A DNA stretch of 64,000 nt from the IMG/VR virus record IMGVR_UViG_3300037418_003103; one strand, given 5' to 3'. The notes under the pieces were generated by a model, which was not told the origin of the DNA, did no database searches, and worked only from the letters and a program-made list of their open reading frames with translations. Below, piece by piece: positions 4,782 through 16,094 of the stretch. Source of the stretch: a virus. Its lineage: Duplodnaviria > Heunggongvirae > Uroviricota > Caudoviricetes. The position numbers and the translations under genes are program-made. Numbering within the stretch: position 1 is the first letter of the stretch; each line of letters begins with the position of its first letter.

Positions 4782-5846
4782 CTATGCCAAATTTAAACTT
4801 TCTTTTTCTTCTCTTAAAAAATACTCAAGAGCAACGGCTGAAATTTTCTTATTTAACTCCTTTAATTCAAAGCCAGAATCCTTTATGGTTTCGAGTTCTT
4901 CTTTAATAATATCGTTTATTACCAGTTTAATATATTCACCAATATGACGTCTATGAATAGCTCCTCCATTTAGAAGATGACAGGCTTTTGTAAGCATTTG
5001 GTCAAGTCTCCATGTGGGGGTTATTTTGTCAACTACTTCACTAATTTTATTATTTCTATCAATGTCAATAGGAGAGGCAACAGGCTTATCTTTTGGCTTG
5101 CCTGCATGTTTATCTCCCTTAGCTTTAAAACGGTAAATTTGGCCGTTTAAATGGCCAATACCAACAATTCCTTCGCCTATACCAGAAAATCCAAATGCCT
5201 TTCCTACTGGACATTCAGTTTCAACTTCTTTAACTATCTGATCAATAAGCTGTTGGGAACTTGCTGGGTCATTAAAGTCTATGTCCAGAGTATAGGTTTT
5301 ATAATCATTTATATTATATATCCTGTTACCAGGTGCCCTTAGGTTTGAGGAATCAACCCAATAAGCAACAGAATCAACCCCGTCCTTTGGATGTGGAGTG
5401 ATCTTTACTCCTATTATAAACATAGATTTATCTAAGTTGTTAATTGCCACGCCCTTTTGGATTCCTTTTCCCACCCACTCAGCGTATATTGTTATTGTAT
5501 TAGTTGATAAGTCCAAAGAATTCCTGCTTTTAATTTGATTAAATAACACTTCTAAAGCCGATTTATTTCTTTCGCAAAAAAGAGCCGATCCAGCGTTGTC
5601 ATTACCAATACTGATTATGCTTTCTTTTGATTGAACCCACATGCCTACCAGGTCGTTCATACAGACGCCTAAATTAGTTCCATGTAATTTTACAGTAAAA
5701 TCGAACCTGATAGTAGGTTTAGGGAGTGATTCATCATATGTTGGATCTCCATTTTCATCTAAACCTGTAAATTCTGAATATCTTTTTACAGCATATACGG
5801 TATTAATATACTGTCCGATATCTGGGAAGCTAATTTGTTTTTTCAT
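4782..5846 (-). CDS. ATP-dependent RNA ligase, Rnl2-like
   Basis: Motif I KLHGTN, YAEW, GEGIV, RFKAK. Confidence 0.8.
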   Translation of the reverse strand: MKKQISFPDIGQYINTVYAVKRYSEFTGLDENGDPTYDESLPKPTIRFDFTVKLHGTNLGVCMNDLVGMWVQSKESIISIGNDNAGSALFCERNKSALEVLFNQIKSRNSLDLSTNTITIYAEWVGKGIQKGVAINNLDKSMFIIGVKITPHPKDGVDSVAYWVDSSNLRAPGNRIYNINDYKTYTLDIDFNDPASSQQLIDQIVKEVETECPVGKAFGFSGIGEGIVGIGHLNGQIYRFKAKGDKHAGKPKDKPVASPIDIDRNNKISEVVDKITPTWRLDQMLTKACHLLNGGAIHRRHIGEYIKLVINDIIKEELETIKDSGFELKELNKKISAVALEYFLREEKESLNLA

Positions 5847-5899: not shown

Positions 5900-6523
5900 T
5901 TATTTTACGTTTCGAAAAGAAGTCTTCAGATCAAAACCAGCTGAAAGTATTTTCTCTTTATTGGTTTGATTATTAGGAATATCCTTTGTTCTGGACAGCC
6001 AATTTGATAACTGAATCCATAAGTCTTCTGCTGGCAAGACCCTTTGAAAGCCGTAATCAGCGAGTATCGGAAATTTAGAAAACTCCTGATGGTGTTCGAA
6101 ATAATGGTAGTCGCGGTGTTTGTAAGTTAGGCCTAACTCGCCACCTAAAACGTTGATCAATATAGGATAATTCAACTTATCGTTAACCACTGAGTTAACT
6201 CTTTTTTTTAAGACCTGTGTTAAGGATTGATTCGAAAGTTTAAGGTCAACAGTATAATAATCCTTCTCGTCACCGCCTCTGATCCAGTATCTTCTTTTTT
6301 TGCTCTTAAGAGCAATTTTTTCAATATCAGACTCCCAATAATACTGACCATTCAGACATACTCCTTCATATTCATATCCGCAAATATAAATATTAACCAG
6401 ACCATTTGGCGGGAATTTAGGTGTCCTATAGAACTCAGTCCTATCAAGGATTAACTTTTCATCAATTCCATATATTCCCTGCAGATAATCGTAATAATCC
6501 TTAAATTTGCTAATTATTTTCAT
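5900..6523 (-). CDS. hypothetical protein
   Basis: 207-aa ORF; MKIISKFKDYYD ... GFDLKTSFR. Confidence 0.75.
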   Translation of the reverse strand: MKIISKFKDYYDYLQGIYGIDEKLILDRTEFYRTPKFPPNGLVNIYICGYEYEGVCLNGQYYWESDIEKIALKSKKRRYWIRGGDEKDYYTVDLKLSNQSLTQVLKKRVNSVVNDKLNYPILINVLGGELGLTYKHRDYHYFEHHQEFSKFPILADYGFQRVLPAEDLWIQLSNWLSRTKDIPNNQTNKEKILSAGFDLKTSFRNVK

Positions 6524-7071
6524 GTTAACTGGGTAGTTTTCTCTACACGATTTGAATCAAGTATCTCTGATGCTTTTATCATTAATTCATCAAGATACTG
6601 CCACATTTCCGTTTCTGGACCAATGTGCCTGAGTGCTGTTGTAAAATCTATATGTTCTTTAACATACATTCTAAGCTTATCAATATTTTTCATCCTGGTC
6701 GCATGAGATATATTTGCAATTCTATCAGCAAGCTTGATAACCAATGCTTTAGGATATAAATTTATTTTCTGATATACCCTTTCTTTCTTCTCTTTTCTTG
6801 TTCTAGCATCGCTTGGGTCAGTAACAGCTAGAACCATTTCAGCTACGTTAAGGCCAAATAAATTTTTTATTTTACTGTAAGTTAATGCGGCATCCTCGAT
6901 GCTATCATGCAGTGCACCCGCAGAAATATAGTCACCAGCATACCCAAATTGTTGAATAACGTCCACAACATCCTGCAGATGTTTCTCGTATGGAAATATA
7001 TCGTACATTTGGTTCTTGTGTGCTGAAAAAGCAACCATTTTAGCCTCTTCGTTTGCCTTTGAATAAAACAT
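6520..7071 (-). CDS. HD-domain (p)ppGpp hydrolase-like protein (small alarmone hydrolase/Mesh1-like)
   Basis: AH..Q, PY..H, LHDSIED, KLADRIAN. Confidence 0.75.
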   Translation of the reverse strand: MFYSKANEEAKMVAFSAHKNQMYDIFPYEKHLQDVVDVIQQFGYAGDYISAGALHDSIEDAALTYSKIKNLFGLNVAEMVLAVTDPSDARTRKEKKERVYQKINLYPKALVIKLADRIANISHATRMKNIDKLRMYVKEHIDFTTALRHIGPETEMWQYLDELMIKASEILDSNRVEKTTQLT

Positions 7072-13665: not shown

Positions 13666-13684
13666 TTAATTTATATTTTACTTG

Positions 13685-13755
13685 TAGCACCACTAAGATT
13701 CGAACTTAGTCGTCGAAAATCAAAATTTCGCATGCTGCCGTTACATCATGGTGCA
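13685..13755 (-). tRNA. tRNA-Gln(TTG)
   Basis: Cloverleaf with U1-U72 mismatch; loop TT TTG AT. Confidence 0.9.
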
Positions 13756-14239
13756 ATTTTACTCCAAATTCTATTTTCCAGGTCCTTATAAAAGGGTTCA
13801 GGGATCTTTATTCCTCTTGACTCAAAATCCTCTACAATTTCCTGCTTCCTAAAAGTACCTTCAACTACACCATCACTCCAAAGGTTGACATGCAACCCCC
13901 AACTCTTCTTAGCTGTTATTACAGCCCTGGTTATGTTCGGATGGCGGGTAATAACCTCAAATATATCATTACTCTTAAATTCTCCATTATCAAATCTCTT
14001 AAAGGCTTCCTTTCCTGAGAATGAACCAGTTCCTTGTTTGAATCTGTAGTCCAGATTCAGATCACATCCACAAAAGATAAGTAACCCACTTCTATATGAC
14101 TTCAGAAAGAATGAGAACATTTCATTAAAGTTTTCTGAATACTTTCTTATCTTTCTATCTTTTCTTGAACCAATCAGTTTTTTTCTTTCTTCTCTATCCT
14201 GATTGGTTACATTGCGTCCAGCCGTTTCATAATGCTCAT
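13746..14239 (-). CDS. hypothetical protein, probably frameshifted near its start
   Basis: Frame of 13746..14120 stays open to ~14244; nearest ATG (14239) is 1 nt out of frame. Confidence 0.5.
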
Positions 14240-14253
14240 AATTTTAATTTGTC

Positions 14254-14514
14254 TTAGGGTATTATTCCAAGTGATTTTAATTCTTTTTCAATACCTCTTC
14301 CCTCCTTATTGGAGGCGGTACAAAAGCACTGTACCGCCTCAGCTACTGCGACCTCTACATCATCGTCATAAGCCGCAATTGTATTCAGTTTGAACAATGG
14401 TATGTCAACGTCCAAGTAACCCATTCTTTGAGTTGTAATTACTGGCGTTAGGACACTATAGCTCCTTCCAGGAAGATCCATTGTTATATTCATTACTTTA
14501 TTATCATTCTCCAT
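14254..14514 (-). CDS. hypothetical protein, HicB N-terminal-like
   Basis: IP...T.A.D..VE.AV.EAV pattern. Confidence 0.45.
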   Translation of the reverse strand: MENDNKVMNITMDLPGRSYSVLTPVITTQRMGYLDVDIPLFKLNTIAAYDDDVEVAVAEAVQCFCTASNKEGRGIEKELKSLGIIP

Positions 14515-14532
14515 ATTAATAATGTTTCATAA

Positions 14533-14774
14533 TAAATATTAGCAAACGGTGGCAGAGGATAGGCGTGCACTAACGCCTCGTTTTACGTCAAACTTTGCCT
14601 TGCTCAGGCTTGTGGATTCGAACCACAGTCTCCACCGCATATATAGGTGGCATCCTAACCGCTAGACCAAACCTGAATTTAAGATCTGACTAAAGCTTAG
14701 ACGCACACGTGGCTATGGTGGCTCTCCTTCGGCTGATTCAGCAAATTTTTGCTGACACCGTTTATTAATATTTA
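14533..14774 (-). ncRNA. putative ~240-nt structured RNA enclosing a tRNA-like domain
   Basis: 23-nt terminal arms 14752-14774 and 14533-14555 pair at 21/23 positions; internal helices. Confidence 0.6.
14603..14676 (-). tRNA. Glu/Asp-type tRNA body with 9-nt anticodon loop TATATATGC
   Basis: All four stems intact; anticodon not assignable. Confidence 0.7.
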
Positions 14775-14781
14775 AAGAACT

Positions 14782-14858: not shown

Positions 14859-14903
14859 TTTTAATCGTTTTTAAAACACGCAGAACGATTCAAAACTGAC
14901 CTG

Positions 14904-14976
14904 AGTTCCCTGCTGGACTTGAACCAGCGACCAATCCCTATTACAGGACTGCTCTAACCAACTGAGCTAAGGGAGC
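14904..14976 (-). tRNA. atypical/pseudo tRNA with abnormal anticodon arm
   Basis: D and T arms canonical; GTCCT GTAATA GGGAT gives a 6-nt (or 8-nt) loop; C2-A71 mismatch. Confidence 0.6.
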
Positions 14977-15231: not shown

Positions 15232-15249
15232 GGAGACGTGGGGCTCGAA
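15232..15249. repeat. 18-bp direct repeat of 16022-16039 (tRNA-like 3' end)
   Basis: ggagacgtggggctcgaa at both sites, flanking the endonuclease gene. Confidence 0.9.
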
Positions 15250-15284
15250 ACATACTTTTCTTTAATTATTTGGTATTTATTAAT

Positions 15285-15959
15285 ATGAAGCCAAAATACA
15301 CTAATAAAGAATTTGAAGAAGCAACTTCAACCACAGAATTACCTTGCGAATGTTACCAATGTTCAAATACATTTCTTAAAATTAAAAAACATATAACTTT
15401 TGAACTTAAACACAATGTCGGTGAGTGTAAATTTTGCTCACAACAGTGTTTATCTAATTTTAAAAATAAGAAAATTAGTGTTAATTGTTCAAATTGTTCA
15501 AAGACCTTTAAAAAAAACAAACATAGAATGAAATTATCATTAAATCATTTCTGTTCACGCTCATGCTCCGCAACCTATAATAACATTCATAAAACTTACG
15601 GCACTAGAAGGTCAAAATTGGAATGTTGGTTAGAGCAACAACTCACCGCATTATACCCTACCATCCATTTTGATTTCAACAAGAAAACTATTATCAAGTC
15701 TGAGCTAGATATTTACATACCATCATTATCATTAGCATTTGAATTAAACGGTATCTTTCATTACGAACCCATATTCGGCATTAAAAAACTTAACCAAACA
15801 CAGAACAACGATATTTCCAAAAGTAAAGCTTGCTTTGACGCAAAAGTTGACCTTTGTATTATAGATGTTTCATCTCAAAATTATTTCAAAGAACCTTCCA
15901 GTATCAAATTTTTAGATATCATCCGAAAAATTATTGATGACCGCTTGTTAACATCTTAG
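15285..15959 (+). CDS. Zn-finger + PD-(D/E)XK (Vsr/DUF559-like) putative homing endonuclease
   Basis: CxxC and FCS..C repeats; RSKLE, ELDIYIP, AFELNGIFHY. Confidence 0.8.
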   Translation: MKPKYTNKEFEEATSTTELPCECYQCSNTFLKIKKHITFELKHNVGECKFCSQQCLSNFKNKKISVNCSNCSKTFKKNKHRMKLSLNHFCSRSCSATYNNIHKTYGTRRSKLECWLEQQLTALYPTIHFDFNKKTIIKSELDIYIPSLSLAFELNGIFHYEPIFGIKKLNQTQNNDISKSKACFDAKVDLCIIDVSSQNYFKEPSSIKFLDIIRKIIDDRLLTS

Positions 15960-16019
15960 CCGCTATAAAAATAACGTTACCAGCAAACACCTCTTGGCGG
16001 TGGGTTAACTTAGTTTGCC
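15947..16019 (-). ncRNA. HDV-like (theta) self-cleaving ribozyme
   Basis: P1 GGCAAAC/GTTTGCT (G.U at site), P2 GTTAAC/GTTAAC, P3 ACC/GGT, L3 GCCAAGA, P1.1 CC/GG, P4 CGTTAT/ATAGCG, J4/2 GCTAA. Confidence 0.75.
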
Positions 16020-16094
16020 TAGGAGACGTGGGGCTCGAACCCACCTGACCTGATACCCTTCCGACACGGTATAAGCGTGAGGGGATAGACTCCA
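16020..16094 (-). tRNA. D-armless tRNA-like RNA with Ile(TAT) anticodon loop
   Basis: CACG CT TAT AC CGTG; T arm GTGGG TTCGAGC CCCAC; acceptor GGAGTC/GTCTCC; A73. Confidence 0.6.

What the first reader, a model, noticed from the sequence alone, without database searches (positions are those of the whole stretch)
14533..14774. ~240-nt structured RNA carrying an internal tRNA with a 9-nt anticodon loop
Seen: UAAAUAUUAAUAAACGGUGUCAG (14774-14752) pairs with CUGCCACCGUUUGCUAAUAUUUA (14555-14533) at 21/23 positions. Inside, GUCAGA (14690-14685)/UUUGAC (14592-14587) brackets a Glu/Asp-type cloverleaf (14603-14676) whose stems are intact but whose loop is UAUAUAUGC. Additional hairpins: AGGCGU/ACGCCU and UCAGCAAA/UUUGCUGA. 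The flanks are GC-rich and non-coding. Intact stems argue against simple decay. Known: some large ncRNAs such as GOLLD embed tRNAs, and Y RNAs have tRNA-like domains, but the arm order here is the normal tRNA order. Inference: a new ncRNA class, possibly a decoy for anticodon nucleases or synthetases.
Basis: partly seen in the sequence, partly recalled or inferred. Interest (0 to 1): 0.75.

Follow-up and report, generated by a model that had tools for sequence, protein, structure and literature searches.

The report
Disabled tRNA inside a phage RNA rod
A huge phage's tRNA gene cluster holds one perfectly folded Glu-type tRNA whose anticodon arm is two bases too long to decode, enclosed by a long helix formed by its flanks; the structure is real, but it is a one-off with no relatives, so "new RNA class" cannot be shown.

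Summary
At 14603-14676 (minus strand) lies a full tRNA fold: Rfam tRNA scores 45.8 bits and all tertiary positions are intact. Its body is tRNA-Glu type. Its anticodon arm is 19 nt instead of 17, read either as 5 bp plus the loop UAUAUAUGC, or as a sixth U.C level plus AUAUAUG. No reading gives U33, a usable anticodon and a purine at position 37.

The flanks have 45-60% GC in a 32% GC phage and are non-coding. They pair with each other far better than chance: duplex -53.8 kcal/mol against -31.1 +/- 4.3 for shuffles. None of the other 12 tRNAs in the array shows this. The flanks match no Rfam family.

I found no homologue, so neither conservation nor covariation can be tested. I looked in 50,697 phage genomes, IMG/VR, metagenomes and the syntenic slot of 18 related huge-phage loci. 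The element and the orphan ORF86 next to it are specific to this lineage. The folding model also prefers a rival fold in which the leader's GCCACC captures the anticodon stem.

Best reading (0.4): a non-decoding tRNA-like module of the array transcript that acts in RNA processing. A neutral relic and a stable decoy or Y-like RNA remain open. The scan has not seen this element on other DNA.

Side finding: the related phages carry many circularly permuted tRNA modules closed by a conserved, covarying helix.

The parts
14752..14774 (-). 5' arm of the closing (leader-trailer) helix
   Evidence: Pairs with 14533-14555 at 21/23 positions. Pair probabilities exceed 0.9 for 18 pairs.
14738..14755 (-). 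Leader hairpin UCAGCAA/UUGCUGA with loop AAAU
   Evidence: Present in both the MFE and the cloverleaf-constrained folds.
14677..14737 (-). GC-rich leader. It holds GCCACC (14722-14717) and GCCAC (14713-14709), which can capture the 3' strand of the anticodon stem, and an inner stem 14705-14688 that pairs with 14599-14584.
14603..14676 (-). tRNA-Glu-type cloverleaf. Acceptor UCAGGUU/AGCCUGA with G73 and no encoded CCA, D arm GUCU-AGCGGUUA-GGAU, 4-nt variable loop, T arm UGUGG-UUCGAAU-CCACA.
   Evidence: ARAGORN. Rfam tRNA 45.8 bits. Nearest bacterial pattern matches are tRNA-Glu(UUC).
14632..14650 (-). Anticodon arm of 19 nt: CCACC, 9-nt loop UAUAUAUGC (14645-14637), GGUGG
14556..14602 (-). GC-rich trailer with hairpin AGGCGU-UAGUGC-ACGCCU (14578-14561)
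   Evidence: Rfam finds no HDV-like or other family here.
14533..14555 (-). 3' arm of the closing helix, holding the third GCCACC (14553-14548). It ends 19 nt before the ORF86 start codon.
14254..14514 (-). ORF86, an orphan small protein directly downstream. Together with the element it is absent from relatives.
   Evidence: Only itself among 5.8 billion proteins. The ESM Atlas model resembles HicB-like/UPF0150 small proteins, TM 0.58-0.74. My own AF2 model is poor.

Best explanation
This is a tRNA-Glu-derived gene that can no longer decode. Its anticodon arm is 2 nt too long and no register gives U33, a usable anticodon and a purine at 37. It lies inside a lineage-specific, self-complementary leader and trailer within the polycistronic tRNA-array transcript. 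Inferred mechanism: the intact acceptor/T/D body is still recognised by RNase P and the 3'-end tRNA processing enzymes. The 18-23 bp leader-trailer helix is a double-strand-specific (RNase III-type) cleavage or stability element. Together they punctuate the transcript between the tRNA array and the downstream ORF86-uORF-ORF124 messages. The leader's GCCACC copies may hold the tRNA-like body unfolded until processing. Shown here: the fold, its statistical excess, the Glu-type body, the defective loop, and the absence of relatives and of any known-family match. Inferred: every processing step and any benefit to the phage.
For: Full tRNA model match with all helices standard. Direct reading shows U8, A14, G18-G19, A21, G15/C48, G53-C61 and the UUCGAAU T loop intact. 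Only the anticodon loop is aberrant. Among 234 distinct phage tRNAs examined, this is the only one with a perfect 5-bp stem around a genuine 9-nt loop. Leader-trailer complementarity is unique to this tRNA among the 13 in the array (z -5.3) and extreme for the window. The flanks are as GC-rich as tRNAs in a 32% GC genome and are non-coding. GCCACC occurs 12 times in 128 kb of both strands, and 3 of these lie inside the 242 nt on one strand. The element sits exactly at the junction between the tRNA block and protein-coding genes. The same array demonstrably uses an RNA device for tRNA-end processing: an HDV-like ribozyme at 15947-16019, RF02682 38.9 bits. Related phages fill the same slot with other tRNA-like modules closed by helices that covary.
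Against: There is no homologue, so no covariation or conservation. No expression or end-mapping data exist. RNase P and RNase Z do not need an intact anticodon stem, so its perfection is not explained by this role. The other 12 tRNAs of the array need no such helix. The slot is evolutionarily plastic: relatives hold tRNA-Asn, module remnants or modules there, which fits neutral turnover. The thermodynamic model prefers a non-cloverleaf fold for the full transcript.
Confidence: 0.4

Rival explanations
1. Neutral relic. A tRNA-Glu-type gene arrived with ORF86 on a recent insertion from a GC-richer source and was knocked out by one indel or repair event in the anticodon-loop DNA, for example (TA)n slippage or endonuclease-break repair. 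The inverted repeat is a by-product of the insertion and has no RNA function.
For: The element is a singleton and ORF86 is an orphan. Both are absent from all relatives at a slot that varies from phage to phage. The array carries HNH endonuclease genes and a cassette flanked by an exact 18-nt duplication of a tRNA-like 3' end (D16, 12, 80). GC-rich flanks would be expected for recently imported DNA.
Against: A 23-bp arm plus further leader-trailer pairing at z -5.3 is not expected from an arbitrary insertion. No second copy of the arms exists in the window or in IMG/VR, so no mobile-element family is visible. No disruptive change occurs anywhere outside the loop.
Confidence: 0.28
2. A stable ~240-nt non-coding RNA presents a non-decoding tRNA domain on a long terminal helix. 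It would be a Y-RNA-like particle or a decoy or sponge for a tRNA-binding protein (nuclease, modification enzyme, synthetase), possibly switching between the cloverleaf and the leader-captured fold.
For: The overall architecture, a terminal helix plus a tRNA-like domain, recalls Y RNA/YrlA. It lies in a phage tRNA array, as phage YrlA-like RNAs do (my own knowledge of Chen et al. 2014; earlier scan notes). The whole tRNA body including the anticodon stem is intact. Two competing folds are predicted. No known family explains the flanks.
Against: Rfam YrlA does not match. The arm order is not permuted and the acceptor end is open. No TROVE/Ro60 or other partner turned up among the 39 window ORFs scanned with Pfam. 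The loop does not mimic any natural anticodon loop. There is no conservation.
Confidence: 0.18
3. A working decoder with an expanded anticodon loop: a natural frameshift or multi-base-codon reader, or Tyr(AUA) as ARAGORN labels it.
For: ARAGORN assigns the anticodon AUA. Engineered tRNAs with 8- or 9-nt loops can read 4- or 5-base codons (general knowledge; reviews found).
Against: No register gives U33 together with a purine at 37. The body carries Glu-type features (U11-A24, U13.G22, 4-nt variable loop) and G73, not the features of the class II bacterial tRNA-Tyr. Long ORFs in the window are intact under the standard code. AUAUA-type codons are so frequent in a 32% GC genome that such reading would be harmful.
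Confidence: 0.04
4. A DNA-level element: a miniature inverted-repeat mobile element or a recombination or protein-binding site, with the tRNA merely carried along.
For: Terminal 23-bp inverted repeats flank about 196 bp. The outer half of each arm is AT-rich.
Against: No other copy of either arm occurs in the 64 kb, allowing up to 6 mismatches. The only four IMG/VR matches to the arm consensus are chance hits in coding DNA of unrelated 48-51% GC phages. No target-site duplication is evident. Complementarity continues inside the arms, which suits RNA rather than terminal repeats.
Confidence: 0.07

Closest known systems
Canonical tRNA (Rfam RF00005), tRNA-Glu type
   Same: Full cloverleaf at 45.8 bits with tertiary nucleotides intact. 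The D arm, the 4-nt variable loop and G73 match those of bacterial tRNA-Glu.
   Different: The anticodon arm is 19 nt and has no valid anticodon register. The first pair is U1-A72. The tRNA is embedded in a strong leader-trailer helix that no other tRNA of the array has.
YrlA / Y-RNA-like tRNA mimics (Rfam RF02553)
   Same: A long helix formed by the two ends plus a tRNA-shaped domain, in a phage tRNA array.
   Different: The arms are in normal order, not permuted. The acceptor is open rather than loop-closed. There is no model match and no Ro60/TROVE gene was seen.
tRNA-like processing signals (plant mitochondrial t-elements, mascRNA-type) and RNase III leader-trailer stems (rRNA operons, phage T7 early RNA)
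   Same: Non-decoding tRNA shapes and long leader-trailer helices that mark cleavage points in polycistronic RNA. This comparison rests on general knowledge and is the working analogy for the best explanation.
   Different: No cleavage was tested here. The combination of both devices around one tRNA-like body is not a described arrangement as far as I know.
HDV-like theta ribozymes next to phage tRNAs (PMC10879173; Rfam RF02682)
   Same: The same array has one at 15947-16019 (38.9 bits). The trailer of this element starts with a similar AGGCAAA...UUUGCU pairing.
   Different: The trailer gives no HDV-like hit. Its similarity to the local ribozyme is within chance, 29% of shuffles score as well.
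Helix-closed, circularly permuted tRNA modules of the related huge phages
   Same: They occupy the same genomic slot after tRNA-Asp. Each is a tRNA-like body enclosed by a helix made of the module's two ends.
   Different: They share a conserved UAGUAA...UUACUUCG...UUUUCUC core and a permuted order with encoded NCCA. Neither the motif nor the permutation occurs in the window.

Membership tests
tRNA (RF00005) | Cloverleaf with conserved tertiary nucleotides, scoring above the family's gathering threshold | tested here: met
   45.8 bits against a threshold of 29, model positions 1-71, no non-standard pairs. ARAGORN also calls it.
tRNA (RF00005) | 7-nt anticodon loop with U33, a 3-nt anticodon and a purine at 37 | tested here: not met
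   The loop is UAUAUAUGC (9 nt). The alternative 6-level stem leaves AUAUAUG with U37.
tRNA (RF00005) | Processed to about 74 nt, given CCA and aminoacylated | not testable with these tools
   No CCA is encoded (G73 is followed by CAA). No expression data are available.
YrlA / Y RNA-like (RF02553) | Match to the covariance model | tested here: not met
   No YrlA hit on the element at E up to 10.
YrlA / Y RNA-like (RF02553) | Permuted tRNA-like domain with a loop-closed acceptor, and ends emerging at the anticodon side | tested here: not met
   The arm order is normal and the acceptor is open. The window has no signature of T arm, acceptor 3' strand, NCCA, short loop and acceptor 5' strand.
YrlA / Y RNA-like (RF02553) | Neighbouring Ro60/Rsr (TROVE) gene | tested here: inconclusive
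   No TROVE hit among the 39 window ORFs scanned with Pfam. Only 64 kb of a genome of at least 345 kb was visible.
HDV-like / theta ribozyme (trailer) | Nested double-pseudoknot fold detectable by Rfam HDV-like models | tested here: not met
   No hit at E up to 10, although the same method finds the array's real copy at 38.9 bits. There is no significant sequence similarity to that copy.
Miniature inverted-repeat mobile element | Several copies with shared terminal repeats and target-site duplications | tested here: not met
   No other copy in the window. The IMG/VR matches are chance hits in coding DNA. The rest of the genome was not available.
GOLLD / ROOL and other large ornate RNAs with embedded tRNAs | Match to the Rfam models | tested here: not met
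   Nothing but tRNA is reported for 14525-14780 or for the whole window at gathering thresholds.

The most novel reading that the evidence does not exclude
The 242-nt transcript is a stable, functional RNA of a kind not yet described. An unpermuted, non-decoding tRNA-Glu mimic sits on a long terminal helix. Its leader carries 'anti-anticodon-arm' copies (GCCACC) that toggle the body between a captured fold and a tRNA fold. It would serve as a switchable bait or partner for a tRNA-binding host or phage protein.
Probability: 0.15. Interest if true: 0.7.

Novelty: new variant of a known kind. Interest (0 to 1): 0.4.

Why it matters
Phage tRNA arrays are increasingly seen as counter-defence and translation-takeover devices. 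Their non-canonical members, such as ribozyme-linked tRNAs and tRNA mimics, are where new RNA biology is being found. If this element is functional, it would be an example of a tRNA body reused as a processing or binding module while keeping normal arm order. The leader that can unfold the body would be a novel feature. As a singleton it cannot carry that claim yet. Its present value is as a precise, testable locus, and as the pointer that led to the helix-closed permuted tRNA modules in related huge phages.

Tried and rejected
- **Rfam at three scales**. Only tRNA matches. The large scans silently dropped this tRNA, so absence in big scans is weak evidence.
- **blastn of the region against 50,697 phage records**. 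Only the neighbouring tRNA-Asp matches.
- **IMG/VR pattern scans.** I scanned for the anticodon arm with 7-9-nt loops, for Glu-type arms with 8-9-nt loops and for the arm consensus. None returned a relative.
- **GTDB genomes, Glu-type pattern**. The only hits were eight ordinary tRNA-Glu(UUC) genes of Armatimonadota. These fix the body type and say nothing about the host.
- **Synteny searches.**
  - The ORF124 search found 17 loci in IMG/VR and metagenomes, plus a 376-kb NCBI contig. All are 41-53% identical and none holds the element.
  - ORF86 is an orphan.
  - The only relative of the dNMP kinase is 28% identical.
  - The JGI contig is 100% identical to the window, and the DNA of the Logan contigs could not be fetched.
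- **Flanks as decayed tRNA or internal duplication.** Not significant.
- **Trailer as a paralogue of the array's HDV-like ribozyme.** Not significant.
- **Target for the loop.** The complement GCAUAUAUA occurs at chance level.
- **Promoter and terminator scan.** Uninformative.
- **ORF86.** The AF2 model is too poor to use (pLDDT 45) and Pfam finds nothing even at E up to 10.
- **Literature.** Nothing on natural 9-nt-loop phage tRNAs or on permuted tRNAs in bacteriophages.

Full report
**Context.** The window is a 32% GC sequence with phage genes: HNH endonucleases, an SbcC-like nuclease, a polyvalent ADP-ribosyltransferase, a sigma factor, ClpP and DnaJ. No genome is held for it. Its proteins occur on a contig of 345 kb, so it is a huge phage. 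SprB repeats and Bacteroidota-biased structural neighbours of ORF86 hint at a Bacteroidota host. The minus strand carries a tRNA array from 17100 to 12525, with 13 ARAGORN genes. The finding lies between tRNA-Asp (14858-14782) and the small ORF86 (14514-14254).

- The 23-nt arms pair at 21 of 23 positions.
- The cloverleaf at 14603-14676 is a genuine tRNA fold. Searched alone, Rfam's tRNA model gives 45.8 bits over its full length with no non-standard pair. The larger scans missed it only because of speed filters.
- Direct reading shows U8, A14, G18-G19, A21, the G15/C48 pair, G53-C61 and a UUCGAAU T loop.
- The body is tRNA-Glu type: D arm GUCU-AGCGGUUA-GGAU with U11-A24 and U13.G22, a 4-nt variable loop and G73. 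The only bacterial genomes matching a degenerate D-arm plus anticodon-stem pattern are ordinary tRNA-Glu(UUC) genes.
- The sole defect is the anticodon arm, which is 19 nt instead of 17. Read as 5 bp plus 9 nt, or as a sixth U.C level plus AUAUAUG, no register offers U33, a sensible anticodon and a purine at 37.
- Among 234 distinct tRNAs from all loci fetched, this is the only one with a perfect 5-bp stem around a true 9-nt loop. The two other '9-nt' cases are 7-nt loops with a mismatched closing pair.

**The flanks are more than chance.**
- They are non-coding and as GC-rich as tRNAs.
- The whole element folds with z = -5.0.
- The 110 nt upstream and the 110 nt downstream pair at -53.8 kcal/mol, against -31.1 +/- 4.3 for shuffles. 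None of the other 12 tRNAs shows leader-trailer pairing, with z from -1.7 to +1.5.
- Across 1062 frames of the window this is the second strongest value. The rest of that tail is tRNA-on-tRNA pairing.
- With the cloverleaf enforced, the flanks form an outer helix of 18-19 pairs, the leader hairpin, a ragged middle, and an inner helix of about 16 pairs next to the acceptor stem.

**A competing fold exists.** In the unconstrained ensemble the 3' strand of the anticodon stem (GGUGG) prefers leader copies of CCACC, at 14721-14717 with p 0.67 and 14712-14709 with p 0.26. The cloverleaf has probability of about 6e-5. GCCACC occurs 12 times in the window's two strands, and three of those lie within this element on one strand. 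Energy models ignore tRNA tertiary contacts and co-transcriptional order, so this does not disprove the cloverleaf. It does show that the drawn 240-nt architecture is one of two alternatives, and the triple motif remains unexplained.

**No relatives were found.**
- blastn against phage genomes matches only the adjacent tRNA-Asp.
- Three IMG/VR pattern scans found no related arm, loop or terminal repeat.
- ORF86 has no homologue among 5.8 billion proteins.
- The next gene, ORF124, has homologues at 41-53% identity only.
- In the 18 loci fetched through those homologues the array order ...Lys(CUU)-Asp(GUC)-X-uORF/hairpin-ORF124 is conserved. X is a canonical tRNA-Asn, a remnant, or a different structured module, and never this element.
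- The one other contig with DNA is identical to the window.
- Covariation, the decisive test, is therefore impossible with present data. The element plus ORF86 is a lineage-specific filling of a plastic slot.

**What it is not.**
- It matches no Rfam family other than tRNA, including YrlA, HDV-like, GOLLD and ROOL.
- The same array does have an HDV-like ribozyme at 15947-16019 (RF02682, 38.9 bits). The trailer's apparent AGGCAAA...UUUGCU resemblance to it is within chance.
- It is not a repeated mobile element, as far as 64 kb and IMG/VR can show.
- It is not a permuted tRNA.
- A decoding role is very unlikely. The loop has no valid register, the body is Glu-type while the only nominal anticodon is AUA, and long ORFs are intact under the standard code.

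**Most likely mechanism.** I favour, at 0.4, a non-decoding tRNA-like module of the array transcript.
- The intact acceptor/T/D body would still be cut by RNase P and the 3'-end tRNA processing enzymes.
- The long leader-trailer helix would be an RNase III-type or stabilising element.
- Together they would mark the boundary between the tRNA block and the downstream messages.
- The analogies are tRNA-like processing signals and rRNA or T7 leader-trailer stems (general knowledge), the array's own ribozyme-assisted processing, and the helix-closed modules at the same slot in relatives.
- All processing steps are inferred.

**Rivals.**
- Neutral relic (0.28). This fits the singleton status and the mobile-DNA-rich surroundings. 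It does not explain the leader-trailer pairing.
- Stable Y-like or decoy RNA (0.18). This fits the intact anticodon stem and the two folds. It lacks a partner protein, a model match and any loop mimicry.
- DNA-level element (0.07).
- Expanded-loop decoder (0.04).

**Side finding in the related phages.** Their arrays hold 2-8 copies per locus of a 105-145-nt module. Its layout is P1, UAGUAA, P2, UUAC-UUCG, a variable interior, P2', UUUUCUC, P1'.
- P1 and P2 covary. P1 occurs as CUG/CAG, CAG/CUG, UCG/CGA and CCG/CGG. P2 occurs as GAGU/ACUC, AGAGGG/CCCUCU and UAGGG/CCCUA.
- In many modules the interior is a circularly permuted tRNA. The order is anticodon hairpin with a proper 7-nt loop, variable loop, T arm, acceptor 3' strand with N73 and CCA, a 6-14-nt loop, acceptor 5' strand, then D arm.
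- I rotated six of them in silico and dropped the closing helix. ARAGORN then called complete tRNAs ending in the encoded CCA: Gly, Met and Asp.
- Rfam, including YrlA, does not match them.
- An RNA-ligase gene lies a few kb away, both in the 376-kb relative and, as a weak hit, in the window.
- Earlier notes of this scan describe similar permuted tRNA mimics in other phages as YrlA-like Y RNAs. I did not test that reading beyond the failed YrlA match. Complete anticodon arms and encoded CCA make true permuted or two-piece tRNAs a live alternative.

**Verdict.** The structure is real and unusual. 'New class' and 'decoy' are unproven. Interest is moderate.

Noticed in passing
L040:5273-5416, L040:6409-6546, L038:6699-6837, L038:4647-4784, L043:2351-2488, L036:7066-7215, L063:11639-11790 and about 20 more in L031-L049 and L063: Related huge phages carry many helix-closed modules (UAGUAA...UUACUUCG...UUUUCUC, with P1 and P2 covarying). 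Their interiors are circularly permuted tRNAs broken at position 26/27, with real anticodon loops and encoded NCCA in the acceptor-capping loop. After in-silico rotation ARAGORN calls them Gly, Met or Asp tRNAs. Rfam, including YrlA, does not match. An RNA ligase gene lies nearby (L063:15137-15811). They may be true permuted or two-piece tRNAs, or Y-RNA-like mimics.
   Followed up: partly
window 15947-16019 (-), with 15270-15959 (+) and 15232-15249 / 16022-16039: An HDV-like ribozyme (RF02682, 38.9 bits, below the gathering score of 44) starts right after a tRNA-like element at 16020-16094. An antisense HNH endonuclease ORF follows. The cassette lies between two exact 18-nt copies of that tRNA-like element's T-loop-to-3'-end sequence. 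This looks like the footprint of an insertion into the array.
   Followed up: partly
window 14903-14976 (-): A second odd tRNA lies just upstream of tRNA-Asp. Its body resembles the array's tRNA-Val (Rfam 46.9 bits). Its anticodon arm reads GUCCU-GUAAUA-GGGAU (6-nt loop) or a 4-bp stem with an 8-nt loop. ARAGORN gives no isotype. Six-nt loops also occur in L035:3481-3553 and L010:6153-6229.
   Followed up: no
window 14207-14239 (-) and the equivalent position in L031, L035-L049: A short upstream ORF (MSIMKRLDAM* here, MKRKAH* in relatives), followed by a hairpin and an A/G-rich stretch, precedes ORF124 in the window and in all relatives. This may be a conserved leader-peptide control element.
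   Followed up: no
window 14548-14553, 14646-14651, 14717-14722 (-): Three of the window's twelve GCCACC hexamers lie in the 242-nt element on one strand. Two pair with GGUG strands in the drawn structure. The third, in the leader, is predicted to displace the 5' strand of the anticodon stem.
   Followed up: partly
window 4782-5846 (-): A 354-aa ORF has a weak RNA-ligase (PF09414) hit, E 4e-4, below the Pfam threshold. It lies about 8 kb downstream of the array, next to an HD-domain protein (6520-7071). The 376-kb relative has a clear PF09414 gene in the corresponding neighbourhood.
   Followed up: no
window 14254-14514 (-): ORF86 is an orphan by sequence. Its ESM Atlas model resembles small Bacteroidota proteins and HicB-like/UPF0150 antitoxin domains (TM 0.58-0.74).
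   Followed up: partly
window 13684-13755 and 14602-14676 (-): Method note. The whole-window Rfam scan at gathering thresholds listed 11 of the 13 ARAGORN tRNAs. The one under study scored 45.8 bits once searched alone, so filter losses matter in this AT-rich sequence.
   Followed up: yes
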